Assembly (NCBI GenBank): GCA_001724265.1
Contig: MEDY01000659.1
Span: 1-64,000, forward strand
Direction of reading: 5' to 3'
DNA length: 64,000 nucleotides
Origin: Rhizaria sp. SCN 62-66
Lineage: Eukaryota
The notes under the pieces were generated by a model. It made no database searches. It was not told the origin of the DNA and worked only from the letters and a program-made list of their open reading frames with translations. Made by a program: the position numbers and the translations under genes. Positions 1,271 through 55,058 of this stretch are shown here, in pieces (the stretch's first letter is position 1; each line of letters opens with the position of its first letter).

Positions 1271-3076
1271 ATGCTCAACATGAATAAGTACCAGAACGCT
1301 GTTCAAGCTGCGCTATCTCTGTGCCCCCAACTCTCGCTTGAGGGAGTGAACGAACTCGGACGTGTCTATTCGCAGAGTCAGTCCGAAGATGAGGACAACG
1401 CTGAGTTCAAAGATGTGATCGATGAGGACGTGTTCGTAGCACTGGCCTCTAACATTGCTATGCCGCTCTGTGAAGATCACATGTCGACCATGCGTCGTCT
1501 CTTTGCGACTCTCCAGGTGTTCACGTGTCCTGTCGTGCTGACCTGTGACCGGGGCTACAAAGCCGTGGTCGCTGCGGGCTGCTTCGAGGCTGTTCTCAAC
1601 TGTGTCGCAGCGCCCGGCGCGACCCTGCACACTGACGGTCCTCACTATGCTCAATATCAGTCCCTTGTCGATGTGAGCAGGTACGCCGCGCGCTCGCTGG
1701 AGACAATGTTGCTGTACTTAAACGATTGCTCTGCACTTGTCGAGTCTGGCTTCTTCGCCACACTTCTGTCCGCAACTTAGGTGGACAGTGACGCATTTCC
1801 TCTGTTGGCACTCGCTGTGCGGGCGATCGTCGAGCGCATTCCGCTGCAGTCTTACACCGTTGTGCGCGCTGCGCTGCCTGTGCTCACGCGCGCTCTCAAG
1901 CAACACGAAGCTCCCCTCGAGCACTCGCATGTGGACCCAGACATTCTCGTATTGCAAGTCTTGACAACGTTGCGCACGCTCTTTGACGTGAGCTCGTGCA
2001 AAAGCGACCTCGCTGATCTCACCTCTTCGTCTCTGTGGCCTACGCTTGTGGCGCTGCTTGACTAGCCCGCAGTGCGCGTGACTGCGCTGAGCGTGCTCGG
2101 GCTGCCCGCCGCCGCCGCCGCCGCAGGGCTGCGCTCGGTGGCCGCCGTCGCACTGCGGTGCTACTCGCCCGCTCTGCTATCATAGCTCTGCGCACTGGCG
2201 GGACTGCCCGCGGCCGAGTGGCGGCAGGTCGCGCCTGAGCTGCTCAACCTGCTCGCAGACGCGGCCTCCGCGGCGCCGGCGCTCGCTGAGAGGATTGTGG
2301 CGGTGCGCGCCGTTGATATCTTGTCGCCAGCGCTGCCGTTAACCCTAGGAAACAATCTGGACCTGCCGTGTGACTCGCGATGGATTGTTGCCGCTGCGTA
2401 TGCGCGCTTGATGCTGAGGCTGCTTGAGCGTCCCATGTGTGGCAACGGCAACGGGCGGACTAACGTCGCGAACAGCGCCTTCTATGTTGGAAACCTGTCC
2501 GCCGACGCTGCTGGCGCTGGCAACAACGGGGGCGCAGATGACTGGAGCGATAGCGGCGACAGCTGGGCCACAGGCAACGACGATGACAGCGGTTATGGCG
2601 AAGCCGGTGACTGCCCCGAAAGCGGTGGCCCCGCGCTACGCAATCCGGGGGCGTGGGTTGACGCGCGCGCAGAGCCCTACAGCGCAGCGCAAATGGTGGC
2701 CGCGGCGACGCAGCTGCTGCGCACAGGCGCAGTGCGCTACGCGGTGGACGCGATCCGCATTGGTGCCGGCGCGTTGTCTGCGATGGCCTGGGCAGCGTGC
2801 GAGCGTCTCGCCTTGATGCTCACTGCTCTCCTGCGGGTTGGCGCGGGCGCTGATCCAGATCAAAGCGACGATGACGCTGTGTCTGTGCGAAACCAGGTGC
2901 TGGCACAGTTCTTTGACGCCGGTGGCCGGGATGTGCTGACCACGCGTGCACTTGATGTGTATGGGCTCCATGCCCGTGCTGCCGCGTTTGCGTTGGCGAT
3001 GAGGCGGATGGCAACTCTTGTGCGAAGTCTTGCGCCACTGGATGACGATGCACGAGATTTACCTGGCGATATTTAA
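1271..3076 (+). CDS. ARM/HEAT-like helical protein, 601 aa if three in-frame TAG codons are read as sense
   Basis: ORFs 1271-1780, 1781-2065, the 2066-2296 stretch and 2297-3076 share one frame. They are separated only by TAG at 1778, 2063 and 2183, and the frame ends in TAA. ARM-like segments: AVVAAGCFEAVLNCV, ALVESGFFATLLS, LWPTLVALLD*PAVRVTALSVLG. Confidence 0.7.
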
Positions 3077-3491
3077 CTTAAAACTCAATGAAACAATACA
3101 CATTGGATACCGTTCTGAATTATGTAAAGTAATCTATGTATCAATACGATTTTTAATGACGCTAATATAGAGGATCACTCCGCAGGATAACTAGTAAGGC
3201 TTGTTAGAATGTAGTGATTCAAGTTGTACATGTACTAACATATTTTTTTGAAAAGAAAAGAAATAGTGAAATGAGTCTTAAGCAAAGAAAAACGAACGTA
3301 AAACAAAAATAATTGTTTTAAAACGTAGCATGAATAAGAAATGTCCCGTTTTTGTAAGGTTAAATTTGACTGTAACTTAATGTAACAGTTGTGTGGAAGA
3401 AGACTCGCATCCATGAAAAAAAAAAACAAGCGCAGTCCTACACATCATTGAGACGAATGTGCAACACACACAAAAAAGAGAGTGCATACAG

Positions 3492-6400
3492 TCACTGCGC
3501 GTTGTGCGAGTTTTCAGCCGCATTCCAAGCCTCGGCGGCCGCGACGTCGGCGCGCAAGCCTTCCTCCAGCGCGCTGGTGGCGCTTTCAGTCGCAGCGGCA
3601 TTCGGCGCTGGAGCGACGGTGGCGGTGACCGCGGAGGGGCTGTGCTCCACGGAGTCCAGCGGTGGCGACGGAGAGGGCGACCAGCTGACTGTTAGCGGCG
3701 GTGCCGCAGCGAGGCCGAACGCCGCCGCGTCGCTCGAGTCGCCGAAGCTCTGGACAGCGCCCGCCGCGGCCGCGTCCGGGGCGACAACGGACCCCACAGT
3801 CGAGGCGCGGTCAAACACAGGCGCGGGCGTCGGTGCAGGCACGGCGACGGGGACAGGCGCGGGCAGCATCGTCGCAAACGCAGAGTCATCGAACGCGTTC
3901 GCAAAGTCAATCTGCGTTGCAGGCTCGGGCGGCGCAGACTCCGCGGCTTCCGCAGCCGCAAGAGCTGCGACGGGCGTCGAAACGTTGCTGTGTGCCGTCA
4001 GCGGCTTCAGCTCGATCTCGCTCCCCGCGGCCCCAGTGGGCGCAGTGGATGCGACCTGTGCGCCAGTGGGGTCAGTGGCGTTAGCGGTCTTTGCACCGGC
4101 GATGAGGTGCTCCTGATGGTCGATCGGGGTCCCGGCCGCGGCGCTGGGCGAATGAGACTCGGCTGCGCCGTCGTCAGCGGCACTGGGGGCGTTGAGTGCA
4201 AGCGCGGCAGCGCCCAGCCCGCCAACACTGACGCCAGCGCCGACCCCAACAGCGTCATCATTCAACTGAGAGTCGCGGTCGTGGTGGTGGTGATGCTTGT
4301 GGTGCTTCGGCTGCAGCTGCGGGCGCGGCGGCGGCGGAAGCGACGAAGGTCCGCACTCATCAAGCCCGTCGTCAACGGCGCCCTGCTCCTTGTAAACGCG
4401 CGAGTGCGTTTCGTACATCGGACCCCAGGGCGCGGACTGGAAGCGCTTGCGGCCGAGCACGGCGCCCGGGATGCCGCAGAAGATGGTGATGAAGATAAGC
4501 ATGAACCAACCCGCGCCCATCCAGTAGGCCGCGTCGAAAACGTTGCAGCACGTCGCGTCGCGGACCGTCGTATAGGCCGCGCTGATGTACTGGCAGCCGA
4601 ATATGCGCGCAAACTCGCTCGTCACAGTTGTCAGCGCAGTGCTTAGCGCTGCCGCGGAGGCATTGACGGCCATTGCCCACTGCGGCTGCACCGGGCCAAA
4701 GATGTCGTCATCGGCCAGGCCGACGCGGCTTGTGATGAAGTTGATCGGCAAATCAGCCGCAAACTCGCCCACCGAGGTCCAGAGCGCGTCAATCGTGTTT
4801 TCGGTGTCGCACGAGCCGTGCGCGAGGTCTTGCATCGTCTGCAGCAGGTTCACGGTGATGTTGGAGCGCAGAAAGTGGATGTCGCAGCCATCGATCTCGC
4901 GCGCGTACGTAGCTGCGGAATCCAGAGGCACCGCGTCCGCCCAGGGCTTGCCCGTGGTCGGCGAGTAGCAGTGCTCTGAGAGCGTTTCGAGCGCGACCCT
5001 GTGCAGCAGATTGTCCATCGAGCGGCACGTGTCGGCGCCGACTATGAGCACGGGAAACACGAGCGCGCCGACGATGAGGGAGCCAATGAAGGCGAGGAAA
5101 AACATGAAGCATAGCGACACGTTGGTGAGGTGAATCGTCGCTGTGTCGGTGCGCTTGCCGAAAAAGAAGACGAGCAGCGACGCCACCAGCAGCAGAGCCG
5201 CAGCAAACGAGGGCACGATGAACGGCACTGACACGAGCTGACGGCGTGAGAGTGAGAGGGGAATCATGCCGTTGGAGCCTGAATCCATCGAATCCTGCTC
5301 AAAAAGAGTCATCGACCTGCGCATGCACGAGTTGGTGACGCACACCTTGTCATTTTTGTAGCGATTCCCTTCTTTGTCATGAAATACCGTGTTCAGAGTC
5401 GGGTCCGCCAGATCGTAGATCATATTGTTAAGGTTGACAAGCGCGGAAAAGAAGTAAACTGCGCCCGCTTCAGTGATGAGCTTGGGGTCGAGGCGCTTGA
5501 GCAGCTCCAGGAGATCCTTAAACCACTGCTCGTCGCTGACTTTGAAGTCCATGTCGAACAGGTCCTGGTTCTCCTGCATGCAGTCGCTGAGGCTCTCTGT
5601 GGCGTCCACAAGCTCCCCCAGTGCGCCGCCTGCACTGTCCTTGTGCGCATACATCTCCGAGTCCAGGTGGTCCGCGTACAGCGGCAGACAGTAGTTGACG
5701 GCGTTGAGAAACTCGAGGAATTTCATGACATCGCCGACCATGTCCAGCCCCAGCGCGCCGGCGACGGCGTCAACGACGGCCGACTCAACGCCGTTGACAA
5801 CGCTGCTAGCGGCGTCTCCCAGCGCCGAGCCCACGTCGACGAGCGTGCCCGCCACGTCACCGGGGCTCACCGCGCTCACAGTCGACGCCACGTCGTCGGC
5901 CAGGGCGTCGAGAGCGTTGCCGGTGTCGGTGAGAAGACCGGCGGCGTCGCTCGCCGTCGTCGACGGCAGCTGCGGCAGCTTCGGTGGCGAGAAACTAACC
6001 GCACTGAGAGTGACATTACCACTGCTCTCACTCATCTCACTGCTGTTCACACTGCTGCTCCTGCTGCGAAGTGCGGTCGGTGACGCGAGCGCAGAGGAAG
6101 AAGCAGCTCCAGTGCCGCCAAGGCGGGCGTTGAACAGCGCGTGCGCGGTCCACTTCGCGTCCGTCCCGTTGGCAGCCAGCACTGTGGTCTGCGTCGCGGC
6201 AACGGCGTCCTGCGCTGACGCGAGCAGCGCCCCGTGGGCAGCGGTCTCGGCAACAGTGGCAAGCGAGCCCAGCGTGCTCGCCAGCGCGGCCAGCTGCGCC
6301 GTGACACGCGGGCACCGGTCGCCGGCGGTGATGCAGTCAGCGTCGGTGTCGCACGCAGTGGAGAACACTGTCGCGCAGCGCGATACGCCGAGTCCTGCGC

Positions 6401-9659: not shown

Positions 9660-12600
9660 TCAGTCCAGATCTCTGTCCTGGTCCATGTCGCGGTCCTCCG
9701 AGTCAGCGAGCACGATGCTGCGGGAGCCTGGTGCTCCAGACGCGGGCGCGGCAGACACACGTGCACCGGGAGCGGGCGCGCCGGGCGCGGACGTGTTGCC
9801 TAGCGAGAGGAGCTGCTGCAAGGACGACCCAGCGCCGCGAGCCGGGCGGCCGCGGCCACGAGACGCGCGCGCGGCGGCAGCGGGAGAGCGTGGCACAGCA
9901 GCACTGGCGGCGGCGGGATCGGATAAGCTTGCTCCGTTGCTCTCCGTACCACTGTCAGGCAAGGAATAGGGGAGCTCAGGTGAACCGATTGAGCCCAAAA
10001 GGACGGCCTTGCGAGGGCGACCGCGCGGACGCTTAATCACCGGCACAACCATGATCTCCTCCTCCTCCTCTTCCTCATCTTGTTCCTGTTGAACGTCCTG
10101 CTTGACTTGCTCTTGCTCTTGCGCTTCTTCTTCCTCTCCCTCTTCCTCTTCTCCTTCTTCTTCAGAGCCGCTTTCTGCGTCAGAGATCGTGATTGCGTCG
10201 CTGACGCTCCCACTCTCCGCGCGAGCGCGGCTCTGAATCTCGTTGTCGCTCTCATCAGCCGCGTCGAACTCCTGATCGCTAGCACGCTCGCCGCCGTCGC
10301 CGTCGCCGTCGTCCTCGTCTTCGTCCTCGTCGCGAGACACGGTGTTCTGGTCGTAGTCCATGACCACGGCGCCCTGGGCAACGAGGCGCGCGACCTTAGC
10401 CTTAGAGACGTACTTGCCCGTCGGGAGCTTGTGCCTACTGCCCGGGAACCTCCGGATGATAAACGGGGATTCTGATGACTTGTCATCGTCGCTAGAACGC
10501 TCGTCATCGCTTCCAGAAGCCTCAGTGCGGCTCGTAGTCCCATCGGCCTCGTTGTCGTCGTTGTCATGGCCGTCGTCGCCGTCGTCATTGTCACCGCGTT
10601 GGCGTGCGAAGCCCCCACGTCCGCGGCTACGTCCGCGGCCACGTCCGCGCCCGCGGCCGCCGCGACCGCCGCGGCCACCACGACTACCGCGACCGCGGCC
10701 GCGACCGCCGCGGCCTCGCGTGGTGCCAGCATCAGCATCAGCGTCAGCGTCAACGTCAGTGTCGGCGTCAGTGTCGGCGTTAGTGTCGGCGTCAGCGATC
10801 TCACGGTCGCCATCACCCGTGTCGGCGCCATCAGCCATCGCCGCCTCATCAGGCGAAGCGTGCAGCTTGCGGAATTGCCATCCTCGGCCCCGGGCGCGGC
10901 CGCGGCCGCGGGGATAGCCTGAGCGTCCGTCGCGGCCGCCGGCGCCCGCGGCCGCCGTGACGGAGTCGACTTCGACGGCGTCGGCATCGACATCATCCGA
11001 CGCGTTGATGGGGTTGATGTACGCGCGGTTGCGGCGCGCGGCGATCATCCGCGCGCGCGCAAGCACCGAGGTGGGCGCGACGGGGAAGTAGAACGGCGGG
11101 ATGCGTGCGTACAGCGAGCCTAGTCCGGGCTCTGCCGGTAAGAGTGTCATGAGCCGCTGCCGCTCATACTTGCTCTCGGCTCCCGCAACGGGCGTGCCTG
11201 CCTGCGCCTCGGTCTCCATCGCGGCCATGCAGCGACGTGCAAACGACGCCTTCTCGCGCACCACGGCTGCGCGCGCGCGCCGCACCAGCGCTGTGACGCA
11301 CCCGCTCACCGCTGTGGGCTCTGCGGCGCTCAGCGCGGCCAGCGCCTGCGACGGCAGCGGGGCAGCAGCAGCAGCAGTGGCGGTGGCGGCGGCGGCGGAT
11401 GCCACGCTCTTCAACGAGGAGGAGGAAGATGGCTTGTGCGCGTCGACGAACTGCGCGGTGACGCACGGCGTCACGGCAATCACGCTCTCCTGAGCCACGA
11501 CAAAGTGCGCGAACGCAGCGTGCGTGCCAACGGCGGTGGCGACCTTGCCCGCGGCGTCGGCCGAGGCAACGGCCGCGGGCAGTGTGGCCGTGTGCGTGAT
11601 TATGCCGGCGTCGAGCAGTGACTCCGCCTGCGCGGCCGCGGCGGCGGAGGCGGCGAGACGGGCGGGCGCGCTGTACTGGGCGCCCCACGTGCGGTGCGCG
11701 CCCGAGCGGCACGGGCAGTCGGGGAAGTGGGGCACTGCAGACTCGACGCCCTCATTGCGGCCGGGCTCGCCGTCCTGCAGAAAACGCGCGCTTGTGGACG
11801 AGAGCGTGTTGTGCGTCGCGTTCGCGCTCGCAGTCGCAGTCGCGTCGCGCAGGTTCTGGGAGATCTGGCGTGCGAGCTTCTCATCCTCGTCGTCCTCTTC
11901 GGTCTTGGTGTCGTTGTCACTGTGGCCGTGGCGGCGCTGCCAGAGACTGGGCCCCGCTGCGGCGAGACGCGCGCCCTCGCTCGTGCTGGCGGCCACCACG
12001 CGCGGTCTCAACTTGGTCATGGTGACCATGAAACCTTCGTCACCGCGCTCCAGCGGCGGCAGACACGAGCAGTCACACGAACAGTCGCCGGAGCCGCTCA
12101 CCAGGCCCTCAGGGCTGCTGGCGTCGCCGTCAGCGTACGGCGGCGCGGGCGACTCCGGAAAACGGCGCTTGCGCAGCTTGGCGTGCGCGGGACAGCACGC
12201 CGTGGGAACGACGGCGAAAAGAGGGCGCAGACGCGCGTCGTGCGGGCCGTCGAGATCACTGTGCAGACACAGCACGCGGGGGAACGCACCGCGCTGCTCC
12301 CGAGTCACACTGACCGTATCAGTCAAAATGTCATCAGCAGAGGGCCCGTTGGGACCCGTGCCGGTGCGTAAGACTTCCGCCAGCTTCGCCGTCGCGGCGT
12401 ACGCCTCCGCGCTACCTTCGAACCGGCCCCAGAGACGGCCGTGCGCGCTGGCAGCCTCGCGCAGACGGCCGATCTCCTCGTACCGCGCGCGCTGCGCGGC
12501 CGTGAACAAGGGCGGGAACGCGGTGGCCTGGTACTCGGGCCCGATCAGCGGCGCAGACGCGCCGTCGTGCCGCTTCGGCGGCGGGCCGTAGCGCCGCGAG

Positions 12601-20100: not shown

Positions 20101-21035
20101 CCAGTCGTCCTACTGCTATTGCTGTGATTGTTGCTATTGCTAAAGGTTGGGGCTGCGCGGGTACCGTGCTCGCGGCGCACAGGCGCAAAGTGCGCTGCCG
20201 AGGCTGTAGTTGTTGCAGCGGGCGGTGGGTGTTTGCGCTGGCCGGCGCTGTTTATCCTCAGTCCGGCCAAGGCTGCAGACGCAGCGGGAGCAGCGGATAC
20301 GGCGGGCACAGGCGCAGGCGCAGGCGGAAGCGCAGGCGCGGTTAAGCCAGATTGAACAGCAGAGGCGAGGCGGGGCGGGCGGCCAGCTGTGGGGTTGGTA
20401 GAGGAGGCAGCGGGAGGCGAGAACGCAGACGCAGGCCTCTGTGATGCTGACCACGTCGACGCCGCTGAAGATGACGAGGTTGAAGGGGCGAGTGTGTGTG
20501 TAACGCCTGCGCGGGGCTTGGGGGGGCCGTGGGCTGCAAGTGAGGAATGCGCCAGCATCGGCGGCGGCGGCGCGGAGACTGCGGCCAAGAGGTCGTCGAG
20601 GTATGACACACTACTCCTCCCACCAACAGCAGCATTAGACGCTCCAGCACCAGCTCCCGCAGGACCGACAAGAGCCTCGGCGCCAGCTTCGGCGCTCGGA
20701 GCGGGCTGGTGCGCGATTTTACCTGGCAGGGCAAGGGGCGGCACCGCGGGGTGCGCGGACACAAGCGCAGCAAACGGTGCCGCGGCGCTGGAAGAGGAGG
20801 AAGCGGCGGAGGGCGGGCCGGCGAAAGAGAAGTCTGACGCCTGCGCTCGAGGCGGCGGCACAGCGGCCGCTGTGTGTGGTAAAGGCGGGCGGGCGCTGTA
20901 AGAAGACGGGAGCGTGTCTTGCAAGGAGGCCTGGGAAGGGTACTTCTGGGCGACGACTGACGCTTGCTTGGAGGCGGCTGTGGGGCCAGGGTCGAGCTCC
21001 AGCTCCAGGTCCATGTCCAAGTCCATATCGTCCAT
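17109..21035 (-). CDS. Uncharacterised coiled-coil protein, about 1226 aa; exons 21035-19494, 19302-18445, 18389-17109
   Basis: A phase-0 intron at 19493-19303 (GTACGT...ACACAG) joins two coiled-coil ORFs. The frame change near 18.4 kb needs either a 55-nt GT-AG intron (18444-18390) or a 1-nt indel. Stop TAA. Confidence 0.75.
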
Positions 21036-40355: not shown

Positions 40356-40823
40356 TTACTGCTTGGAGGCGGGAGCGGGCGCCACGGCGGCGTCGGGAGC
40401 GTCAAACCAGGCGGGCATCTTGCGGTTGATCGGGGGGACCTCGCCGGTGCGCATCATGTACTCGCGGGCCTTGTACTCACGCTACGCACGAGAGTGGGCG
40501 AGCGCGGAGCGGGTTGTGCAAGAGATCGAGCATCATAGAACAAGACAGAACAAGAGAAGAAGCAAAGAAGATGAGGTTCGTTGGTAGGGAGCTAGAAGCA
40601 AGAGAGCAACAACGGCATGGATCTTGGGGAGAGAGAAAAAGCTAGGCTATTGTGAGAGAGTGGTGCGGTGGCGTACCATGAGGACCTGGCGCTGCTCGGT
40701 ATCAGAGAGGAGGTGGGTGTCGAAGAGGGCATCGAGACCGGTGGCGAGGTACTTGCGGCCGAGAATACCGGCGCCGAAGAGGCCACCCATGACCACGAGG
40801 GGGATGAACGTCTGAACAGGCAT
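40356..40823 (-). CDS. Small single-TM protein resembling complex I subunit NDUFA1 (MWFE), 90 aa; exons 40823-40677, 40481-40356
   Basis: MPVQTFIPLVVMGGLFGAGILGRKYL...LSDTEQRQVLM|REYKAREYMMRTG... joined by a phase-0 intron GTACGC...GCGTAG. From memory the pattern resembles fungal MWFE subunits. Stop TAA. Confidence 0.6.
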
Positions 40824-41128
40824 TCGAACCTGTGCGGGCAAAGTGTCAGAAGCGGGATCAGGAAGCAAGATAGGCAAGGGTGAACGTTGGAAGAGCATGG
40901 GCCAGGCGAACCGAGTTTGCACACAGGTGCTGGCATCCATCTAAGACAAGAAGTTTGACCGCCAATACGGCTAGCAGTGCACTCAGCGATCGCATATTGT
41001 ATAAAACACGACCAGTAGATATTAAACAAAAAGCCAATAAAATACTTGACGATCGGAAAAAGGCGCCAGAGACATCAGGAAGCGGCTGCCAGTCTGACCG
41101 CTGGAGAGCTGGCGGCTTACTTTCTACG

Positions 41129-41353: not shown

Positions 41354-41986
41354 ATGTACCGCGCCACCGACTTCGTTAAGCTCGCCGCCCGCCCGCTGGC
41401 CTCTGCCTCGCAACAGGTCGCGCCCCGCGCCCTGGGCGGCGCTATGGCTGCGGCCCAGACCTCGATGCGCGCCAACGCCGCTCTCCAGGCCTCCCACACT
41501 GCCTCCGAGGCTATTGCCCAGCGTGTCTCCAAGCTTCGCCTCCCCGCCGTTGCCGCTTCCACTGCCGCTGCTGCCCCCACTGGCTTCGCTGCTGCTGCCA
41601 TTGCTGCTGCTGTTGTGCCCGTCCGCGTCGCCGCTCTCCCCGCCGCCGCCGTCGCCTCCGCCGCCGCCGCTGCCGCCGCGCCCGCTGCGGCCGTGCCCGC
41701 CGAGCTGACCGCCGGCGCCCTGGACCTCCCCACCGCGTCCCTCCTCCCCTCCGGTCTCGCCGCGTCCCTGCGCGCAATCGAGGTCGCTGAGGGCCGCTAC
41801 GAGCTCACCGCCGTGCCCAAGAAGCGCGTGTCGATCCACAAGCGCCGCGTGCGTCACGAGGGCCACTGGGCGTCGAAGCTCCGCTTCCTTTACAAGCCCT
41901 ACAAGACATGTCTGCAGTGCAAGAAGGTCGTTGCGCCTCACTTCGCCTGCGCGCGCATTGCCTGCCTCGAGGCGCCCCGCGTCTAA
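41354..41986 (+). CDS. MRPL32: Mitochondrial ribosomal protein bL32m with a long presequence
   Basis: AVPKKRVSIHKRRVRH...CLQCKKVVAPHFAC, following an Ala/Arg-rich presequence from ATG 41354. Stop TAA. Confidence 0.88.
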   Translation: MYRATDFVKLAARPLASASQQVAPRALGGAMAAAQTSMRANAALQASHTASEAIAQRVSKLRLPAVAASTAAAAPTGFAAAAIAAAVVPVRVAALPAAAVASAAAAAAAPAAAVPAELTAGALDLPTASLLPSGLAASLRAIEVAEGRYELTAVPKKRVSIHKRRVRHEGHWASKLRFLYKPYKTCLQCKKVVAPHFACARIACLEAPRV

Positions 41987-42901: not shown

Positions 42902-45451
42902 TTAGACGTAGACAATGAGGTCCTCCGTGAGTGCGATGACGTTCATGCCCTGATAGTGCTGGTACGTGGCCTGTACCTCCGCCTCGGTGAACCCCTTGCG
43001 ACGCAGCATCTCATCGACCTGCGAGCGCGGCACCATCTTGTTACCGGCCAGCGCGCCCTCTACGAGCGCCCAGATAGCGGACTTGCGGTCCACGCCCGCG
43101 CCGCCGGGGCCTTCGCGCTGCTCTTCCAGCGCGAGGCGCGACGAGTTGACGAGACGGATCGCCTCCTCTACATCAGCCTGTGTGACTTCGTCGCGGAAAT
43201 GCACACGCGCCACCGCCTGGCACAGCCGCAAGATGGAGAGCAGGGAGCGCGCAGTGCAGAAGGCGCCGCGCGGGTTGAACTCGTCCTCGCCGCGCGGGTT
43301 GACGACGCGGCGGTCTTGCGCGTTAGACGACACGCGGAGGTCGACGTACTGGGTCGCGATATAATCGGTCAGCTCGCGCGGAACAGTGGGCTCGAAGAGC
43401 TTCGCGCGGGAGACGTACGCGCGCAGGAACGTCGAGGGAAACGGCGTGAACGCCAGCGGGGGGGCGCGGTTATACTTGTGGACGTAGGCGACGTGGCGCG
43501 CGAGGGCGGCGTCTTTGGTCAGGTCGGGCCGGTCGAGCATGACGAAGAGCAAGTCAAAGCGGGACAGCAGAGCGGCCGGCATGTCGAGGTTGTCCGCCGC
43601 TGAGCGGTGCAGGTTGTACCGTCCGTACGCCGGGTTGGCCGCCGCGAGGACCGTGGTGCGCGCGTTGAGCGTCGTGGTGATGCCCGCTTTGGCGATCGAC
43701 ACGGTCTGCTGCTCCATGACTTCGTGGATAGCTGTGCGGTCTGATTCGTCCATTTTGTCGAACTCGTCAATGCAGCACACGCCCATGTCGGCCAGCACCA
43801 GCGCGCCGCCCTCGAGCGTCATGTCGCCCGTCGCGGCGTCGCGCATGACGGCGGCGGTCAAACCGACACCAGAGGAGCCCTTGCCGGTGGTGTACACGGC
43901 GCGCGGGGCGACTTTGGTCACGTGCTTGAGCAGCTGCGACTTGGCCATACCGGGGTCGCCGACGAGCAGGGCGTTGATGTCGCCACGGATGCGAAGCCCG
44001 TCGGGCATGGCCTTTGTGACGCCGCCGATGAGCGAGAGCAAAAGTGCCTTCTTGATATCTGTGTGGCCGTAGATCTCGGGCGCGATCGACTGCGCGAGTC
44101 GCTCGTAGACGTCCTCCTTGTCGCCCTCTTCGACCACGGCCTCGAGCTCGGCCGCCGTGAGCTGCATATCGGCGTAGTTCTTCTTGGTTTGCGTCAGCGT
44201 GTGTGCGTCGATGTACGTGTCCATGGTGAGGCGGCCGCGGGAGGCGCGGAAACCGGTGGGGAACGACGGCAAGAACACGCCTGCAATGCTGACGACATCG
44301 CCCGGCTTGCACAGGCGCACGAGATCGCCCTGCACGCGCACGGTCATGGAGCGCGGGACGTGGCCGATGGGGACTTCGGTGGGAAGCTCTTGGAGCTTGA
44401 TCTCTTGGACGCGGACGAACTTGGATCCGCGGATCTCTTGGGAGAGCTTGCCCTTGCTGCGGTTGGCCTTGCAGGTGTTCGACTGGCACTCGTTCAGAGG
44501 CGTGAACTCGCGCGCGTGCACCTCCTATGATAGTAGAACAATTAATAAACGAAAATGTGACAAATAATGGCGTGTGAGCTGGAGTTGAAGAGAGACCACT
44601 GAAACAGAAACAGCAATAAAAGGCCAAAAAGAGTTAAAATTGCACTAAAACGCGCAAAGATCCATATGAAATCGTATTTTGGTTGTTTTGCGATTTGCTT
44701 TAGTGAAAGCGTACCTGGTAGATTTCATCGCCGCACTCGTGGCAAAGGTAGCTCTGGACTGTGATCTGGGGCTGGACGTCGGAGGTGCGCGTGACAATGC
44801 CGCGCACGGACACGAGCTGGCCCACATTGGCGGCGCGGATCTCGCGCAGCCGCATGGGCTTCTCGTTCGCGGGCGGGACGAAGCGGACCTCGTAAAAGCG
44901 GCCGAGAAGGCGGTTGAGCTCGGGTGCGTCGTCCTGGTTGTTGCCCTGTGCGCGAAGCTGGGCCAGACGCTCACGGCGCTGGCGCATGAGCTCGTCAAAA
45001 GGTGTCACAACGACGGGGCCGTCGGGGCCGTCGGCGGGCGCGTCGGCGTCAAAAGCAGATGCCGCGACGTCGACGTAGTGGTGCGTGTTGTTCATGACGT
45101 TTTGGCGCAGGTTTTCGTCCACAATGTCGTCGACGAAGATCTCCAGAGACTCGCGCTCGCGGGCGGTGATCGCGCGGCGCTGCTCCATGTACTTGTTCGC
45201 CGTCAGGAGCTCAGCGAACAAGTCTGGAGATGTGGCATCGAGAGAAGGGCGGGAGGATTGGGGTGAAACACGGTGACACGAGGAAGGGGGGATGAACGCG
45301 GGCAAAGTGAAAAATGGCGTTGTGAGCAGAGAGATCAATAATTCGTTGGATAAAACGCGTTTGATAATATAAACAAGATAAAAAGAAAGCTAGAAAACGT
45401 ACTGATCTCCTGTTTCCGGGTGTAATCACCCTTGCGGGGCACTTGAGCCAT
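42902..45451 (-). CDS. MCM7: DNA replication licensing factor MCM7, 726 aa; exons 45451-45403, 45223-44715, 44524-42902
   Basis: Motifs GDPGMAKSQ, YTTGKGSSGVGLTAAV, CCIDEFDKM, LLSRFD, a zinc finger, and MCM7-type RGSKFVRVQEIKLQE and TARSLLSILRL. Two GTACG-AG introns restore the frame. Stop TAA. Confidence 0.95.
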
Positions 45452-45906: not shown

Positions 45907-47736
45907 TCACTGCACGTGCATTAGCTTCACCTGGAGAAACTGGCTAAAAGCGCGCAAAATGCCCTGCGCGGACGGCGACGGCAACATGGAAGCCAGTCGC
46001 AGGAACTCGCCGCGCCACAGCAGAAGTTCGCGGGCTGTGAACGGGCGCGACAAAGACAGAGTCTCGGACGGAGCCGCCGCCGCCGCTGTGGACACCGCCG
46101 ACGCAGAAACGGCCTCTGCGCCAGACGCAGCGCCTGCTGGAGCCACAGCTGCGTCGCCAGAGGCCGCCCTTACGCCGACAGCAGCAGCAGGAGGGCTCTC
46201 AGCAGTCGCGCTCTCGGCTGCAGTGGTTGAGTGAGTTGCCGTAGCAGCTGGAGCGGGCTTGCGGAAGGCTGACTTGGCGCCAAAGCGCGAGCTCGCCGCG
46301 CCCTTCGTAAACGCCGACGTCGCAGGTGCAGGTACAGCGTGGTTAGCCGCAGCAGAAGTCGGAGATGTGAGGGAGAGCGCGGCTGTGGAGGCTGCTAGTG
46401 AAGAGGCGGGGGAAGCTGCCAGCGCGGCGACGGGCGAGGCTGCTGAGGCCGCGGTGGCGGTGTTGGGCAGCACCGACGCCGGCAAAGTCACTGTGGTCCG
46501 CAGCCACACACCAGGCACAGCATTCGCAGCCGCAGCCACAGCAGCCGCAGTGGCAGAGTCTGAAGAGTCAGTGGCGGCGGCGACTGCGGCGGCTTCAAGA
46601 GCGCTTGTGTGGGCAAGAATAGCGTCATTAAGTTGACGAACCTGCAAATGAAACAAATAAAGCAAAATATAAACAAAATGAGCTAATAAAACTAAAATCT
46701 AGGCGAATAACACCACATCGTAACAAGATATTGAATGCTTGATATAGTCTCAAAGCGGAAGTTTAACGTACGACGTGTTGCGTGACGCGGTCGAGCTCCA
46801 GAACAAACGTGGGCCGCTCCAGCGTCACACGCGCGGTCGACTGCAGCCCCTTGACGAGGTCGGCGCTGGCCACCGCGGCGGCCACGCGCGCAGCGAACGC
46901 GCGCAGAGCAGGGCCGTAGGTGCAAGAGACGGTCGCGGCCGCAGTGGAAGCGACTTCGGCGGCGGCGGCGGCTGCCACGGCGGCCACGGCGGATGACACA
47001 AGAGACACAGGGGTCGTCTCAGTGACAGCAACAGCAGCAGAAGCAGCAGCTGCTGCAGCTGTAACAGCGTTGTTGTTGTTGCTCGTGTCAGTCGTCTCAG
47101 TAGACTCTGTCACATTAACAACGGCGTCGTCAGCGGCTGCGGCGGCTGCAGCTGTGGCGGCTGCAGCGGCGTCGGCGGCCGCCTTCTCCGCGGCCTCCGC
47201 GCCGACCGCAGCCGCCGCGGCATCCGAGCCTGCCGCCGCCGCCGTGGCCGCCGCGACCGCAGCGGCGATCGCGACTGGCAGTACACACCGTCCCTCCGCG
47301 GCCGGGCCAGCGCCAGCAGCGGGGGCGCCGGGCGCGAGCTCGGTGCCATCGACGGCGTCAGCCTCGGGGAGCGTGTACAGAGGCGCGTCCCACCGGTTCG
47401 TCGCGATCGGCGTCTCCAAACGGCCCCAGAGATCGTCAAACGCGGACTTGGGGTACCGTCCCAGCCGTTCGTTGCGCTCAAGCGCGGTTTGATGCGAGAT
47501 AGGAAGGTGTACAACGCAGTGCGCGGTACGGGCCTCGCGTGTACGCGTGTAGAGCTCGTATCGAAAGCCCTTGACGAGGTTGGGCGCGTCGAGGATGACG
47601 ATCTTGGAGCCGGTCAGAGCACGCTCGACGGTTGCGCGCAACGCGCCATTCAGCTTCTTCTCGGATGGGACGTCTGTGTGAATCGGTTAAAGGGAAACAA
47701 ATAACGCTCTTTTTTGTCAGAAAACATGTTTGGATG

Positions 47737-47788
<52 letters not shown>

Positions 47789-47803
47789 NNNNNNNNNNNN
47801 NNN

Positions 47804-47852
<49 letters not shown>

Positions 47853-48046
47853 AATAAAACTAAGCCAGTAAGAGTGGAATGTAAGAACGGACCTTTGAAG
47901 GAGGTGGCGCGGTCGAGGCGCAGAGACTCGTAGTTGATGACGTATACTTCACGCGTGGGGTAGACGGTCTTCAGCTCAGTAACAAGGGCCTGTGTAAACA
48001 CTGTCTTGCCTGACAGCGGGGCGCCGCAGAGGGTGATGAGCGGCAT
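45907..48046 (-). CDS. KTI12: Elongator-associated KTI12, 596 aa; exons 48046-47893, 47673-46772, 46641-45907
   Basis: MPLITLCGAPLSGKT P-loop, IVILDAPNLVKGFRYELY, NRWDAPLY, ELDRVTQ, and C-terminal RELLLWRGEFL. Stop TGA. Confidence 0.93.
47739..47851. repeat. (AG)n microsatellite in KTI12 intron 1, containing a 15-N assembly gap (47789-47803)
   Basis: Directly visible in the sequence. Confidence 0.99.
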
Positions 48047-49272: not shown

Positions 49273-50583
49273 ATGGGCATTCGTAAGATCAAGAGCGCGG
49301 ATCCGCACTGCCGCGACCCGAAGCGCCGTGCCGCCTATGAGGCTAGTCTCCGCGGCAAGGACGCCATTGCCCCCACCAGCAAGCACATGGACATCACTAG
49401 TACGTTCTCTCCAATAGCTTGCTCGCAAACGACACTTTCTCGCTAACGCTTAATTCTCGAGCGCACACGACCTGGACAACACATTCACGACGTTGCCCAC
49501 ACTGCTCACATCTACATTTTTATTCTGTATCTTTTCTACGCCTTTTGTTTCTTTTTTGTTTCTTTCGACTCGTAAACAGCGACGACGCGCAAGGAGCGTG
49601 CGTTCGCCCGCCTGCTCGACGGCTCTGCCGACCGCGCCCGCGCGCGCAACCTCCAAGCCGCCAAGCAGCCTGGTTACAAGCCGCGCGAGCGCCGCGGCGG
49701 TCTTGACCAGTCCGGTCTCTCCGAGGCCGTTACCGCCCGCTTCAAGGCACCGACGTTTAAGGCGCAGCTCGAGGACCTTAAGTCAGTCTCCGAGTTCGAG
49801 CGCGCGATGAAGAAAGAGACACGGACCGCTCTCGAGGACCAAAAGCACGCCGAGCAGGCCGCGCGCGACCTCGAGCACAAGCGCGGGATTAGCGAGCGCC
49901 GCAAGCTCAAGCTCAAGGAGCGCAAACTCAAGAAGGACGAGCGCAAGCTCATGCGGGAAGCGGACCGCATCGAGGACGAGCGCTTTAAGGGTCTCCGCGA
50001 GGATATCGAGTTCGGCGACGTGGTAGACCGCCCCCCGTCGTTCGACGACATTGCGCTGCCTTCGCGCAAGCGTGGCGGCGCGGCTGGCGGTGCGATGTCG
50101 AACATCGAGATCCTCAACCGCGCACTCGCCGAGGCCGCCAAGAAGGCCGCCGACGCCGAGCGCGCCCTCAACGGCGGCGATGACGATGAGGAAGACGAGG
50201 ACGGCGCCCGCGCCGGCAGCAGCAGCAGCAACAGCAAGGGCGGACTGGGCAAGTACGCGTCTGTGCGCCGCCACGTCGAGTCCGCACAGGCCGAGCGCGC
50301 GGAGGAGGAGGCCCGCGCCCGCCGCGAAGCCGCTAAGAACGCGATGACGGCGGAGAAGCGCCAGCAAATGCTCGCGCAGGCGCGCGCCGAGCTGCGGCGC
50401 GCTGAGATCGACAAGGCGCGTGAGCAGGCGCAGCAGGCGTACCGCGACATCAAGGCGCGGTCCGGCCGCGGCGGCGGTGGGTTTGCGGCGCTCACGTCGG
50501 GGAACTCACAGCTGCGGATGGGGCAGGCCGTTGCGCAGTCGCGGCTGGAGTCCGTTGACGGGCCCGCCGCACGCTTCCGGTGA
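49273..50583 (+). CDS. CCDC137-like basic coiled-coil protein, 376 aa; exons 49273-49399, 49580-50583
   Basis: Motifs RKIKSADP, EDIEFGDVVDRPP and AREQAQQAYRDIK. Phase-1 intron GTACGT...AAACAG. Stop TGA. Confidence 0.7.
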
Positions 50584-51093: not shown

Positions 51094-54000
51094 TCACTCT
51101 GCGTCGGGGATAGCACGGTAGAAGTCCTTGTTACTCGGCATGACCTGTCCGTGTTTCTTAGCAAACTCCGTGAGCACCACACGCCCCTGCTGCTCGCTCA
51201 GCACGCCCTGCTCCTGCGCCCACATCAGCACAGTGCGCAGCGTCGCCGTCGCACTGGGCGCGGCCGCCGTGGCCGCGCCGGGCGCCGCAGTGCCCGCGAC
51301 CTCGGCCGCAGCGTCGTCCTCAGCGGGCGTCATCATGAGAGACTGCCCCCGCAGGGTGACGTGGACTTCGCAGCTGGTCTTGACGCCCCAGGGCTCGCCA
51401 TCGACCTGGATCGGCAGCGGACCACGTGTGCGCACGACGGCAGACCGACCTTGTGCAAGTCGCAGCGGTGTCGTCAACCCCAGTTGGATCAGACCGACGT
51501 GGAGCGAGTCGCGGAAACCGATGAGCTCGAATAGGCCATCATCCATGCGCGGCTCGCTGAAGTGACGCCGGTCCGTCTCGGCGTGACCCCAGAAGTTGAT
51601 GCCGCCACCGAAAGATTTAATGTTGAGCAAGCACACGCCTTCCATGCCCGTGAGGTCGATTTTGACGCCGTCGATGAAGACTTCAGCGCCAGAGTCGCGG
51701 AGAACGCTCGGCGCGTGCGGGAAAAAGTACGATTCCGTGCCGAGGCGAGCGTACCAGGCCTTGTTGAAGAGCTGCGAAGTGAACAAGTGAGGATAGTGAG
51801 CGCGAAGAAGGTGGAACTTGTGCGCGATAACGGCGTCCAGGCCGATGCCGAGGTAGTTGTTCACCACGACTGCGCTGCTGCCGGTGCCGCGGGGACTGGG
51901 CGACACGATGGGGAAAATCGTCGACACCTTGCGCACGAGTCGCCATGTCTTAAGCCGTTGCCAGCAAGAGCCCGGGGACAGCTCCAGCACAACATCATCA
52001 TCGCCTTCGCCTTCATCACCGTCACTCGCGCGACGTTTGCGCTCGACCACAGCACCAGCAGCGTTATTGCTGTCCTTGTTATCACTCTTGTGAGCAGCGC
52101 TGTCATCCTTTTGCTCGTCGTTCTCATCAACACTGGCGTCGTTGTTATTGCTACTCTGCTTGCGGCGCGGGGCGGTTTTGCGTTTCGGCAGCGGTGTGCT
52201 GAGGCCCACCCGCCTGCTCGACGCAGACGGCGATGTAGTTGCAGTTGCGCCGCTGGGCTTCGCCGCCGTCGTCGTCGGTGTGCCTGCCTTGTTAGAGGCT
52301 GTCGCGTTGTCAAACGCTTCAGGCGCAAGCGGCTTGACCGTGGCATCCCAACGGTCAAGCACGCAGATACCGGAGCGGGAAACACGACGGAGAACGGTTA
52401 ACAGACCGGCGGTTTCCACAGAAGGAGCCTTGCGGCCCCAACCGAGCACCTGCGCCAGGTCGTTCCCGGTGCCAAGAGGCACCACGGCCACGGGAACCGG
52501 CCGGTTGAGCTTGTCGATAGCCGAGAGCACCCACGACACGGTTCCGTCGCCGCCGCAAACGACGACTTGCAGCCGCGGGACAGTGGCGAAGAGAGCGAGC
52601 GCGACTTCCGGCGCATGCTCGGCCAAATCCCAGACTTGGATCGGGTTGAGAAGCTCGGTGAACTCGTGCATAAGCTGCACGCCCATGTTACCGCCCGATT
52701 TACGGTTGATAAACACAAGCACGGGCGCGACTTCACGCGGCAGCTCAAAGCGCCACACGAGCGGCGTCGTAAGCAGCGCGTCTGTGCGCGGCAGAGTGGA
52801 CGCGACCGGCGGCAAACTGATGAAAGGAGACGCTAACACAGCCGCGGCAGATCGGAGAGGGTCCCATGACGCGTCGCCCGCGTTTGCGGTATTGCGTGCA
52901 GATGCAGTCGCGACAGGCGCAGTTGCGACAGGCGCAGTCGCGTTGGAAGACTCGGCCGCGGTTGCGAGAGCGGGTGAGAGAAGGTCGGCAACGGTCAACG
53001 CAGCGGGAAACGCGTGCTGCTGCTGCTGCTGCTGCTGTGCACCGCGCTTGAGGGAAGCAATGGCAAGGCGCGCGGTGGCAGCAGTGTAGCCCGGCGCAGG
53101 GAAAACGCACTGGGGCGGAACGATAAGGCGCGAGATAGGACCTACAGTGCATGCATAGAAGCAAAAGAAGAAGAACAAGCGTTAGAATAATTGCAATTTA
53201 AATAAAGTCAGGATGAGTTAACATACTATTCATAACTCATAGAAGTAGTCTTTGTTTTTGCTAACGTACCGCGGCGACAGAGGTCCCGATCGAGGTCCTT
53301 GAGCTAGCCAACGCAGTCCTCGTGTACGTGTGCACGACACCACAGACAGTGCAGTCCAGCCAGAGCGAAAAGACTGCCGGTGACTTCGCCGCACACGAGA
53401 CACACGTCGGAGACAGTAGAGTGGTTGCCGCGGACCCAGTGGTGCGGCTGCGGTGCAACAGTGGCGTTGCTGCAGTTGCTGCTGGCGCAACTGGGCGTGG
53501 CGCCCGTCACGTCCACAGCAGGCGCAGTTGCAGTCGCAGTCTCAGCCGCGCTATGGGCAGCGGTGTCGGTGTTATTGCTCTTAGCGGCCTTTGTTGAGCG
53601 GATCTTACTGTGAACGGCAACAGACACAGGCTCAGACTCCGCCTCAGCAGCAGAGGCGTTCGCTTCAGCGTCAGATTCGGCAGCAGCAGCTGGACTGCGA
53701 CTGCGGCCACGCGCACTCTTGCTCTTGCTCTTCCTCGCACCAGCCTCAGCCTTCGAAGCAACAGCAGCAGCAGCAGCCTCGGTCTCAGCACCAGCAGCGG
53801 CAGCGCGAGTGCGCGTGCGACGACCAGGCACGGCAGCGGCGGCAGCGGAAGCGGCCTCGGCGGCGGTTTCAGCTTCGAACTCAGCGGCCGCAGCGGCAGC
53901 AGTCTTGCGCTGCCGCGGCGCCACTTTTGCTTCGTTTTCAACATCAGCCTCAGCCTGCGCACGCGCGCGTGACTGCGAAGGCGCAGACCTTGACTGCGCG

Positions 54001-55058
54001 CGCGGCTTCGAAGGGGCGCGCGTGCGAGCGCGAGTGCGCAGAGTAGCTTCACTCTTCTCCTCACCAGCGTCAGAAGCAACATCACTATCCTTTGCGGCGT
54101 CAGTCTTAGTGTTGCTGTGAATGATATTGTTAGCGTTAGCGTGCCGGCGCAATGCTTCGAGCTCTGCCGCGGGCCAAGCGTCGGCCACGGCGCCACCGCG
54201 GGCACTCAACACAGCGTCGAACAGCGCACTGAGCGCCTCGATAGCGCGCGAAGGCCCGCCCGCGGCGGCTGCGGCTGCGGCGGCGGGAGAGTCAGCCGCA
54301 AGCACGTGCGTGGTGATTGTGCCGACAATCTTGCGCGGGCGCGCGGCAGCGGTCGCCATGGAGGCAGGAGTGAGCGCCTGCAGAAAGCCGGCGGCGTACT
54401 CGGCGGGGGTCGCCAGCGCTACTACAGCGGCCTCCGTGGCGCCGGCAACCTCAGAGTCTAACGCAGCAGCAGCGCAGGCCGCGGCGGAAGTGATAGAGCA
54501 AGCAGGTGCGGCGAGGCGCGCGGGGGACGCTGCGCGTGAGCTAGCAGTTGCTGATGTGTTAATGTTCACAAGTGCGGGGAACGCAGCCGGCTGGCGGCGG
54601 ACCGCTGTGACGGCGGTGGCAAAGACGGCGGCGTGGCGCGGCGTGGGGAAGAGCGCGATCGACTTGCAGTTGTGCTCGACAAAGGCGACGCAGCGCTCGT
54701 GTGTGGCGACACCGCAGACGTCGCAGCACAGTGCGCGCTCAGAGACGCCGAACATGCGCTGCGCACAGACGTTGCAGTACGCGGGACGCATGAGTAACCC
54801 AACTTCCTGGTGGTAAAATTGGTGCGGGTCCGCGGCGCCGGCGTGCAGCATGGCCTGGTAATAGGTGCCGTCAAGGTAGGGCTCAGAGAGCAAGATGGAG
54901 CGGCGCTGGCCGAAGCCCATGTAGCGGAATATGCGGTGGATCACCCAGACAGACACGAGCGCGAGCAGGATCTGCCACGGGTACTGCACAGCAATGCGGA
55001 ACAAACGGACGAAATCGTCCGTGAAGCTCCACACCGTGTTGACGACGTACTTAAGCAT
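51094..55058 (-). CDS. DGK: Diacylglycerol kinase (N-terminal TM, two C1 domains, catalytic and accessory domains), 1278 aa; exons 55058-53270, 53141-51094; one in-frame TAG at 53306-53304
   Basis: C1a HQF...CNVC...CDVCGVATHERC; C1b HHWVRGN...CLVC...CLWCRAHVHEDCVG*LKDLDRDLCRRG|PISRLIVPP; catalytic PVLVFINRKSGG, CGGDGTV, PLGTGNDL, NNYLGIGLDA and PIQVDGEPW. Stop TGA. Confidence 0.93.

What the first reader, a model, noticed from the sequence alone, without database searches (positions are those of the whole stretch)
1271..55058. Variant nuclear genetic code: UAG appears to be a sense codon while UAA and UGA remain stops
Seen: four in-frame TAG codons inside otherwise intact coding frames in two unrelated genes (+ strand 1778, 2063, 2183; - strand 53306). 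No in-frame TAA or TGA occurs in any gene model, and no gene ends in TAG. Known: UAA and UAG almost always change meaning together in nuclear codes. Uncoupled cases are rare: UAG=Leu in an uncultured rhizarian, UAG=Gln in the fornicate Iotanema, and some phyllopharyngean ciliates. This organism encodes respiratory-chain subunits, so it is not a fornicate. Inference: UAG is decoded as an amino acid. The contexts SAT*VD, LLD*PA, LLS*LC and CVG*LK suit Gln (one transition from CAG), but Leu, or Trp via A-to-I editing, cannot be excluded. Whether the lineage is new cannot be judged from this window.
Basis: partly seen in the sequence, partly recalled or inferred. Interest (0 to 1): 0.93.

Follow-up and report, generated by a model that had tools for sequence, protein, structure and literature searches.

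The report
Probable UAG sense codon, wastewater eukaryote
An uncultured, GC-rich eukaryote from wastewater bioreactors carries TAG codons inside two otherwise intact genes and never ends a gene with TAG, so it probably reads UAG as an amino acid, but one 64-kb window cannot prove this.

Summary

The strongest case is a diacylglycerol kinase. Its TAG lies in exon 1, inside the second C1 domain and 12 codons before a clear 128-nt intron. Exon 2 holds the catalytic domain. That domain starts 13 residues before the first Met of exon 2, so it can only be translated by reading through the TAG.

The other three TAGs lie in a 601-codon orphan ORF. Its codon bias stays in one frame across the TAGs, and it ends at a TAA where GC drops to about 31%.

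None of my 16 gene models ends in TAG: 8 end in TAA and 8 in TGA. Yet G-ending codons make up 76-85% of every other NNR pair. Independent assemblies confirm the TAGs.

Weak points:
- Only 4 TAGs occur in 14,110 codons, and 3 of them sit in one orphan gene.
- No tRNA or eRF1 was available, and RNA contigs did not cover the sites.
- No homologue shows which amino acid is inserted.

Sense decoding of UAG is the best reading, at about 0.68. If true, it is a new member of the known UAG-only codes. The lineage is unplaced.

The parts
1271..3076 (+). Gene 1: a 601-codon orphan ORF ending in TAA and interrupted only by three TAGs
   Evidence: Codon-bias score is best in this one frame for segments 1271-1777 (+0.24), 1781-2062 (+0.26) and 2186-3073 (+0.16). 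After the TAA, GC drops to about 0.31 and all frames score negative. No Pfam family. No homologue beyond its own fragments.
1778..1780 (+). In-frame TAG 1 (codon 170 of gene 1)
   Evidence: The 169-aa ORF ending here is seen on 7 contigs.
2063..2065 (+). In-frame TAG 2 (codon 265 of gene 1)
   Evidence: The 94-aa piece bounded by TAG 1 and TAG 2 is seen on 7+1 contigs.
2183..2185 (+). In-frame TAG 3 (codon 305 of gene 1)
53270..55058 (-). Diacylglycerol kinase exon 1: two C1 domains separated by a long Ala/Ser/Lys-rich linker; ends in phase 1
   Evidence: Pfam C1_1, E=8.8e-15, 2 stretches. The second C1 matches the human DGK-delta C1 (PDB 1r79), E=1.8e-9. Sequence.
53304..53306 (-). In-frame TAG inside the second C1 domain. 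It lies after the His-x2-Cys and before the last Cys, 12 codons before the exon end
   Evidence: Identical in DNA contigs of two other samples.
53142..53269 (-). Kinase intron, 128 nt: GTACGT donor, CTAAC branch-like motif, TGTAG acceptor, GC 0.32
   Evidence: The splice restores the frame of exon 2 (worked out). Not confirmed by RNA.
51094..53141 (-). Kinase exon 2: DAGK_cat and DAGK_acc domains, ends in TGA
   Evidence: Pfam DAGK_cat profile 1-107 at residues 139-240 and DAGK_acc at 425-583. No Met in exon-2 residues 1-151; the first Met lies inside the catalytic domain.
3074..3076 (+). Terminator TAA of gene 1
3492..3494 (-). Terminator TGA of the 1914-codon gene
9660..9662 (-). Terminator TGA of the 2196-codon gene
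17109..17111 (-). Terminator TAA (followed directly by TAG) of the multi-exon gene 21035..17109
21641..21643 (-). Terminator TAA of the 2452-codon gene
33394..33396 (+). Terminator TGA of the IQUB-domain gene
33779..33781 (-). Terminator TAA of the DnaJ gene
39235..39237 (+). Terminator TGA of the UVB_sens_prot-domain gene
40356..40358 (-). Terminator TAA of a small two-exon gene (40940..40356). Its TAGs lie in the putative intron 40676..40482
41984..41986 (+). Terminator TAA of the mitochondrial ribosomal protein L32 gene
42902..42904 (-). Terminator TAA of MCM7. Its two TAGs lie in the intron 44714..44526
45907..45909 (-). Terminator TGA of the KTI12 gene
50581..50583 (+). Terminator TGA of the Lys/Glu-rich gene 49576..50583
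55703..55705 (-). Terminator TGA of RPN5
62899..62901 (+). Terminator TAA of the TrmO-domain gene

Best explanation
In this organism UAG is read as an amino acid, and only UAA and UGA end translation.

Shown:
- TAG stands in frame in two unrelated nuclear genes, in several independent assemblies.
- Coding continues in the same frame behind every TAG.
- The kinase catalytic domain has no other way to be translated.
- No gene model ends in TAG.

Inferred:
- A tRNA with anticodon CUA, probably a mutated copy of a tRNA whose anticodon differs at one position, inserts the residue.
- eRF1 has lost or weakened its grip on UAG.

The amino acid is unresolved. Gln is the most likely only by precedent and because CAG is the commonest transition neighbour. 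My rough odds are Gln 0.45, Leu 0.2, others 0.35.

UAG is very rare in coding sequence (0.28 per 1000 codons) and concentrated in a fast-evolving orphan gene. That fits a young reassignment in which UAG first vanished from gene ends and is only beginning to re-enter genes.
For: 1. Kinase. The TAG at 53306-53304 lies between the His-x2-Cys and the last Cys of a C1 domain that matches DGK-delta (E=1.8e-9). It is followed 12 codons later by a GTACGT...CTAAC...TAG intron whose removal keeps the frame into exon 2. The DAGK_cat profile starts at exon-2 residue 139, but the first Met is residue 152, and residues 1-151 hold no Met. Exon 2 stays open for 681 codons with a positive coding score.

2. Gene 1. 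It has 3 TAG, 0 TAA and 0 TGA in 601 codons, where a non-coding frame would carry about 9 TGA and 2 TAA. The same frame scores best before, between and after the TAGs. GC and coding score collapse exactly at the TAA.

3. Terminators. 0 TAG of 16 (8 TAA, 8 TGA), although G is preferred over A in CAR, GAR, AAR and TTR at 76-85%.

4. Reproducibility. X3 and X4 DNA contigs are identical over the kinase TAG. The gene-1 fragments are broken at the same TAGs on up to 7 contigs from three sources.

5. TAGs 2 and 3 of gene 1 cannot be removed in frame by any intron with the local GTMCGY donor: 0 in-frame among the 12 and 8 such candidates printed (of 14 and 8 found). The introns I trust are AT-rich (GC 0.30-0.35), unlike the DNA around the TAGs (GC 0.54-0.66).

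6. The 100 nt after each TAG show no unusual RNA structure: z = 1.33, 0.04, 0.15, 0.90.
Against: - There are only 4 in-frame TAGs in 14,110 codons. 3 of the 4 are in one 601-codon orphan gene (P about 3e-4 for that gene, roughly 0.007 for any gene of that size). That is what a decaying gene would also show.
- 13 of 15 complete genes, including four of 1600-2450 codons, have none.
- If the TAGs were nonsense mutations, about half would be TAG anyway from the codon content, so 'all four are TAG' has P of only about 0.07.
- No tRNA lies in the window, and no genome was held for this window. A tRNA(CUA) and eRF1 could therefore not be sought.
- RNA contigs gave no listed piece over the TAG or the intron and no intron joint, so presence of UAG in mature mRNA is not shown.
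- No homologue assigns an amino acid.
- Two in-frame candidate introns with consensus-like donors exist: 1681-1788 would remove TAG 1, and 53435-53304 would remove the kinase TAG together with the C1 domain.
- A coding-like antisense ORF, 18175..18852 (+), ends in TAG.
- The expected share of TAG terminators in a standard-code genome is recalled, not measured.
Confidence: 0.68

Rival explanations
1. The code is standard. Gene 1 is a dying orphan gene with three nonsense mutations. The kinase copy carries a recently fixed nonsense mutation, perhaps covered by a paralogue. The lack of TAG terminators among 16 genes is chance or a simple preference for TAA.
For: 3 of the 4 TAGs cluster in one orphan gene with no homologue in 1.84 billion representatives. 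About 50-60% of one-step nonsense mutations in these genes would give TAG. TAG is absent from the other 12,232 inspected codons. 0 of 14 remaining terminators has P of about 0.04 at a 20% TAG share (from; the share is recalled).
Against: Gene 1 has no frameshift and no TAA or TGA over 601 codons, and it ends exactly where composition changes. Kinase exon 2 keeps 681 open codons, both domains and a consensus intron. TAA:TAG is 8:0 although G-ending codons dominate every NNR pair. Three separately unlikely things must coincide in one 64-kb window.
Confidence: 0.16
2. UAG is still recognised by eRF1 but is leaky. Near-cognate tRNAs or a weak suppressor read through it, so UAG is avoided as a terminator and tolerated in a few genes. 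This would be an ambiguous or transitional code rather than a clean reassignment.
For: In-frame usage is very low at 0.28 per 1000 codons. 3 of the 4 TAGs are followed by C, a base that I recall as favouring readthrough. TAG is absent from termini.
Against: Three readthrough events in one mRNA would give almost no full-length protein unless suppression is efficient, which amounts to reassignment. No downstream structure was found. No TAG terminator was seen that would show the stop meaning (0 of 16).
Confidence: 0.09
3. The TAGs never reach the ribosome. They are removed by unusual GC-rich or alternative introns, or changed by RNA editing.
For: In-frame candidate introns with consensus-like donors exist for TAG 1 (1681-1788, 108 nt) and for the kinase TAG (53435-53304, 132 nt). 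RNA contigs did not cover the sites, so this is not excluded.
Against: The kinase candidate would delete a C1 domain that is conserved with all its Cys and His ligands. No in-frame consensus-donor intron appears among those printed for TAG 2 (12 of 14) or TAG 3 (8 of 8). The candidates have GC 0.55-0.61, against 0.30-0.35 for three clear introns. Coding periodicity runs through them. I know of no precedent for U-to-C or A-to-I editing of nuclear mRNA stops in such organisms (recalled).
Confidence: 0.05
4. The TAGs are sequencing or assembly errors.
For: None found.
Against: The sequence is identical in contigs of two other samples from other studies. The same ORF breaks occur on up to 7 contigs from JGI, Logan and ENA.
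Confidence: 0.01

Closest known systems
Iotanema spirale (Fornicata): UAG=Gln, with UAA and UGA as stops (PMC5304391; passages read)
   Same: In-frame UAG only, UAG never a terminator, UAA and UGA retained. The tRNA(CUA) was predicted but not found there either.
   Different: Iotanema has 204 in-frame UAG in 126 genes, against 4 in about 15 genes here. It is an anaerobe without a respiratory chain, whereas this organism encodes cytochrome c1. The amino acid is not determined here.
Rhizarian exLh: UAG=Leu (PMC5304391; passages read)
   Same: UAG-only reassignment with UAA (56) and UGA (15) as the only terminators.
   Different: It has 384 in-frame UAG in 71 genes at conserved Leu positions. Usage here is at least ten times lower, and no conserved position is hit.
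Phyllopharyngean ciliates, Protocruzia tuzeti and Scotinosphaera: UAG-only codes for Leu, Gln and Ser (PMC11687900 discussion; passages read)
   Same: UAG is uncoupled from UAA.
   Different: This organism is not a ciliate by its features: GC about 60%, spliceosomal introns with GTMCGY donors, and cytochrome c1 scoring 210 bits to animal chains against 54 to the 319-aa chain 7tgh_3D, which I take to be a ciliate entry (species recalled).
Amoeboaphelidium protococcarum: UAG and UAA both Gln (PMC6299283 and PMC5304391; passages read)
   Same: An algal-pond or bioreactor type of habitat, and an opisthokont-like protein affinity is conceivable.
   Different: There TAA is also sense. Here 8 of 16 genes end in TAA and no TAA is in frame.

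Membership tests
UAG-only stop-to-sense nuclear genetic code | In-frame UAG in genes that are otherwise intact and must be read through | tested here: met
   Kinase: the catalytic domain is reachable only through the TAG. Gene 1: coding frame and composition continue past 3 TAGs to a TAA.
UAG-only stop-to-sense nuclear genetic code | UAG absent from true gene ends; UAA and UGA used as terminators and absent in frame | tested here: met
   0 TAG, 8 TAA and 8 TGA of 16 gene models. 0 TAA or TGA in frame in gene 1 and the kinase. The sample is small and the models lack RNA support.
UAG-only stop-to-sense nuclear genetic code | UAG aligns with one consistent amino acid at conserved positions of homologues | tested here: inconclusive
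   Gene 1 has no homologue. The kinase site is in a variable loop, aligned to Ser in DGK-delta. The only database match for that region is the organism's own ORF.
UAG-only stop-to-sense nuclear genetic code | A tRNA gene with anticodon CUA | not testable with these tools
   No tRNA in the window. No whole genome is held. The one metagenome scan returned only a 2.2-kb contig lying within the window's range.
UAG-only stop-to-sense nuclear genetic code | eRF1 N-domain changes that weaken UAG recognition | not testable with these tools
   eRF1 is not in the window, and no genome is available.
UAG-only stop-to-sense nuclear genetic code | UAG present in mature mRNA and spanned by peptides | tested here: inconclusive
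   The poly(A) RNA run X5 gave only short listed pieces in kinase exon 1 (53734-53989, 54129-54442). None lies over the TAG or the intron, and no intron joint appears among the 15 joints shown of 96.
Pseudogene | Frameshifts, mixed stop types, loss of codon periodicity | tested here: not met
   No frameshift, only TAG, and periodicity retained in gene 1 and the kinase. A very recent inactivation cannot be excluded.
Programmed stop-codon readthrough | Specific downstream context or stimulatory RNA structure at a single site per gene | tested here: not met
   z-scores of 0.04 to 1.33 for the 100 nt after each TAG. Three sites lie in one gene. The following codons GTG, CCC, CTC and CTC share no motif.
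Ambiguous stop/sense code (Condylostoma type) | The same codon serves both as sense and as the regular terminator | tested here: not met
   0 of 16 terminators are TAG.

The most novel reading that the evidence does not exclude
This is an unsampled, aerobic, GC-rich eukaryotic lineage caught early in codon capture. UAG has already been purged from all gene ends. It is only starting to reappear inside genes, first in weakly constrained ones, at about 0.3 per 1000 codons. That would make it the youngest UAG-only nuclear reassignment seen so far and a natural intermediate for testing how UAG uncouples from UAA. The inserted amino acid could also be one not yet reported for a UAG-only code.
Probability: 0.3. 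Interest if true: 0.85.

Novelty: new member of a known kind. Interest (0 to 1): 0.7.

Why it matters
UAA and UAG almost always change meaning together. Each independent case where only UAG changed helps to explain how a tRNA(CUA) and eRF1 co-evolve.

This candidate differs from the published cases in four ways:
- its genome is GC-rich;
- it is aerobic and not a ciliate;
- it recurs in bioreactor and wastewater metagenomes over a decade and several studies, so material is obtainable;
- it uses UAG very sparingly, which may show an early stage of the process.

There is also a practical point. Standard-code gene callers split its genes at TAG. The public protein collection already holds gene 1 as 169-, 94- and 257-aa fragments and the kinase as a 584-aa stump.

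Tried and rejected
- Whole genome: none is held for this window.
Supplementary tables of PMC5304391 and PMC11687900 with per-gene UAG counts might refine the usage comparison.
- tRNA and Rfam scans of the window: 0 hits each.
- Gene 1 homologues: 0 among 8000 scored candidates of 330-1052 aa. 3 hits in 1.84 billion representatives, all its own fragments.
- Kinase C1b region: 1 hit of 105 candidates, its own ORF.
- Extending the contig through metagenome contigs: 1 locus, L001 of 2231 nt, lying within the window's range, so no new sequence.
- RPN5 relatives in genome contigs and viral contigs: 239 and 36 pattern matches, none confirmed.
- RNA evidence: no listed piece over the kinase TAG or intron, and parts without cover say nothing.
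- Taxonomic placement failed. Atlas and PDB comparisons show only that RPN5, cytochrome c1 and MCM7 score highest against a few PDB chains whose species the outputs do not name. I take these to be animal and yeast entries (recalled). The named RPN5 hits, two volvocine algae at 39-42% identity over 34% of the query, probably reflect shared Ala-rich words.
- Strain variants of the gene-1 fragments differ only in the start residue and one Ala/Gly, too little for a selection test.
No fold or structure was therefore tried for gene 1.
- Rejected reading: the MCM7 and small-gene TAGs are not sense codons. They lie in introns.
- Literature: searches listed no paper on a UAG-only code in a wastewater or bioreactor eukaryote. 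A 2025 paper on non-canonical codes in Heterolobosea was seen only as a reference and not read.
Full report
**What the window is.** It is a eukaryotic nuclear contig with GC about 60%. It has long ORFs and a few short, AT-rich introns.

It encodes these genes:
- cytochrome c1 (cut by the window start), a UVB_sens_prot-domain protein, KTI12 and a TrmO-domain protein;
- DnaJ, an IQUB-domain protein, MCM7, a diacylglycerol kinase and RPN5;
- mitochondrial ribosomal protein L32;
- several large genes without Pfam families.

The sequence recurs in bioreactor, wastewater and activated-sludge metagenomes from 2015 to 2025, in several studies. No whole genome is held. The window has no tRNA gene and no Rfam match.

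**The observation.** All four TAGs are at the stated coordinates and in frame. They are real bases. DNA contigs of two other samples cover the kinase TAG without any difference (X3 record 3, X4 record 12). The public protein collection holds gene 1 only as pieces of 169, 94 and 257 aa broken at the TAGs, on up to 7 contigs from JGI, Logan and ENA. The kinase appears there as a 584-aa ORF ending at its TAG, on 4 contigs.

**The kinase is the strongest case.**
- Exon 1 (55058..53270) encodes two C1 domains. The second matches the C1 domain of human DGK-delta, PDB 1r79, at E=1.8e-9.
- The TAG lies three residues after the His-x2-Cys of that domain and before its last Cys.
- Twelve codons later comes a 128-nt intron with a GTACGT donor, a CTAAC motif and a TGTAG acceptor, GC 0.32.
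- Removing the intron joins a phase-1 exon end to the frame of exon 2 (worked out).
- Exon 2 carries DAGK_cat from profile position 1 at its residue 139, and DAGK_acc. The first Met of exon 2 is residue 152, inside the catalytic domain, and residues 1-151 contain no Met.
- The kinase half can therefore only be translated by ribosomes that come from exon 1 through the TAG. Otherwise the gene is a null allele whose 681-codon second exon has nevertheless stayed open and coding-like.

**Gene 1 (1271..3076)** has no Pfam family and no homologue.
- Its three long segments score best in one and the same frame: +0.24, +0.26 and +0.16, against negative or near-zero values (at most +0.04) for the other five frames.
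- Directly after the TAA at 3074-3076, GC falls to about 0.31 and every frame scores negative.
- A non-coding frame of this length would carry about 9 TGA and 2 TAA, from the out-of-frame rates of this window. The chance of none is about 2e-5.
- No gene lies on the opposite strand that could cast a shadow ORF.

**Introns as an explanation.**
- TAGs inside the MCM7 gene and a small two-exon gene are indeed intronic. The clear introns start with GTACGT, GTACGC or GTCCGT, and three of them have GC of 0.30-0.35.
- I enumerated GT..AG candidates around the four TAGs. For TAG 2 and TAG 3, none of the printed consensus-donor candidates (12 of 14, and 8 of 8) is in frame.
- For TAG 1 there is one in-frame candidate, 1681-1788: 108 nt, GC 0.55, with a purine-rich acceptor.
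- For the kinase the candidate 53435-53304 (132 nt, GC 0.61) would delete the conserved C1 domain.
- These are weak candidates, but only RNA can exclude them.

**Terminators.** My 16 gene models end in TAA (8) or TGA (8) and never in TAG.

Rows I dropped from that count:
- The TGA ends of ORFs 18274..19350 and 19272..21035. I read these as internal exons of one gene ending at 17109, because the coding frame switches twice.
- Antisense shadow ORFs. One of them, 18175..18852 (+), ends in TAG and scores 0.17, against 0.28 for the ORF opposite it.
- Cytochrome c1, whose end is outside the window.

In CAR, GAR, AAR and TTR, the G-ending codon takes 76-85%. That makes 8 TAA to 0 TAG striking: P is about 0.004 even at equal odds.

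**What speaks against a plain sense codon.**
- Usage is 4 in 14,110 inspected codons (0.28 per 1000). Three of the four are in one orphan gene (P about 3e-4 for that gene).
- Four genes of 1600-2450 codons have none.
- If the TAGs were nonsense mutations, about 50-60% would be TAG from the codon content, so the exclusive use of TAG is only weakly informative (P about 0.07).
- The published UAG-only cases use the codon far more: 384 in 71 genes and 204 in 126 genes (PMC5304391, passages).

**RNA.** The poly(A) metatranscriptome X5 gave only short listed pieces inside kinase exon 1. None of the 15 joints shown (of 96) matches an intron. Whether UAG is in the mature mRNA remains open. The 100 nt after each TAG show no special structure.

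**Weighing.** The standard-code alternative needs three things to coincide in one 64-kb window:
- a three-hit orphan pseudogene without frameshifts;
- a freshly inactivated but otherwise perfect kinase gene;
- a chance absence of TAG terminators.

I put sense decoding of UAG at about 0.68, pseudogenes plus chance at about 0.16, leaky or ambiguous decoding at about 0.09, removal by splicing or editing at about 0.05, and error at about 0.01. The amino acid cannot be named from these data.

**Comparison with known cases.** UAG-only nuclear codes are cited for an uncultured rhizarian (Leu), Iotanema (Gln), Scotinosphaera (Ser), Protocruzia (Gln) and several phyllopharyngean ciliates (PMC11687900 and PMC5304391, passages). 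Amoeboaphelidium is reported to read both TAG and TAA as Gln (PMC6299283, passage). That does not fit 8 TAA terminators here.

The organism could not be placed. Its RPN5, cytochrome c1 and MCM7 score highest against a few PDB chains whose species the outputs do not name. I take these to be animal and yeast entries (recalled). One related uncultured organism has an RPN5 that is 69% identical.

My literature searches listed nothing on such a code in a wastewater eukaryote. If confirmed, this is a new member of a known kind, notable for its very low UAG usage.

Noticed in passing
window 55703-57610 (-), and protein P0007: The RPN5 ORF has a 62-codon upstream extension. The true start is probably Met 63, as shown by a 69%-identical RPN5 from another uncultured organism that shares the same Ala/Ser-rich insertion. 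That relative is the natural outgroup for dating the code change.
   Followed up: partly
window 40356-40940 (-): A small two-exon gene with one predicted membrane helix and no Pfam family. Its putative intron (40676-40482) starts with GTACGC and is unusually GC-rich (0.52). Read without splicing, the gene would seem to end in TAG.
   Followed up: partly
window 47760-47860: A long (CT)n microsatellite with a 15-N assembly gap inside the first intron of the KTI12 gene.
   Followed up: no
window 17109-21035 (-): The coding frame switches twice (near 19350-19500 and near 18400-18450). This suggests one multi-exon gene rather than three ORFs. It has no Pfam family, and its TAA stop is followed directly by TAG.
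   Followed up: partly
window 53670-54136, 59741-60207, 61609-62075, 62543-63000: Ala-rich GCN-repeat coding stretches attract contigs of many other organisms. Depth there is up to 140 against about 6 elsewhere, and they produce false long-range joints in laid contigs.
   Followed up: no
window 5476-8706 (+): The antisense frame of the 1914-codon gene is open for 1076 codons apart from 12 TAGs. Long TAG-only-interrupted ORFs can therefore arise as shadows of GC-rich genes, a trap for code inference from ORF length alone.
   Followed up: partly
window 1219-1250: Three tandem copies of CTGTTTTTTT lie in the divergent region between cytochrome c1 and gene 1, just upstream of the gene-1 start.
   Followed up: no
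window 53271-55058 (-): The two C1 domains of the kinase are separated by about 400 residues of Ala/Ser/Lys/Arg-rich low-complexity sequence, far longer than I recall for typical diacylglycerol kinases.
   Followed up: no
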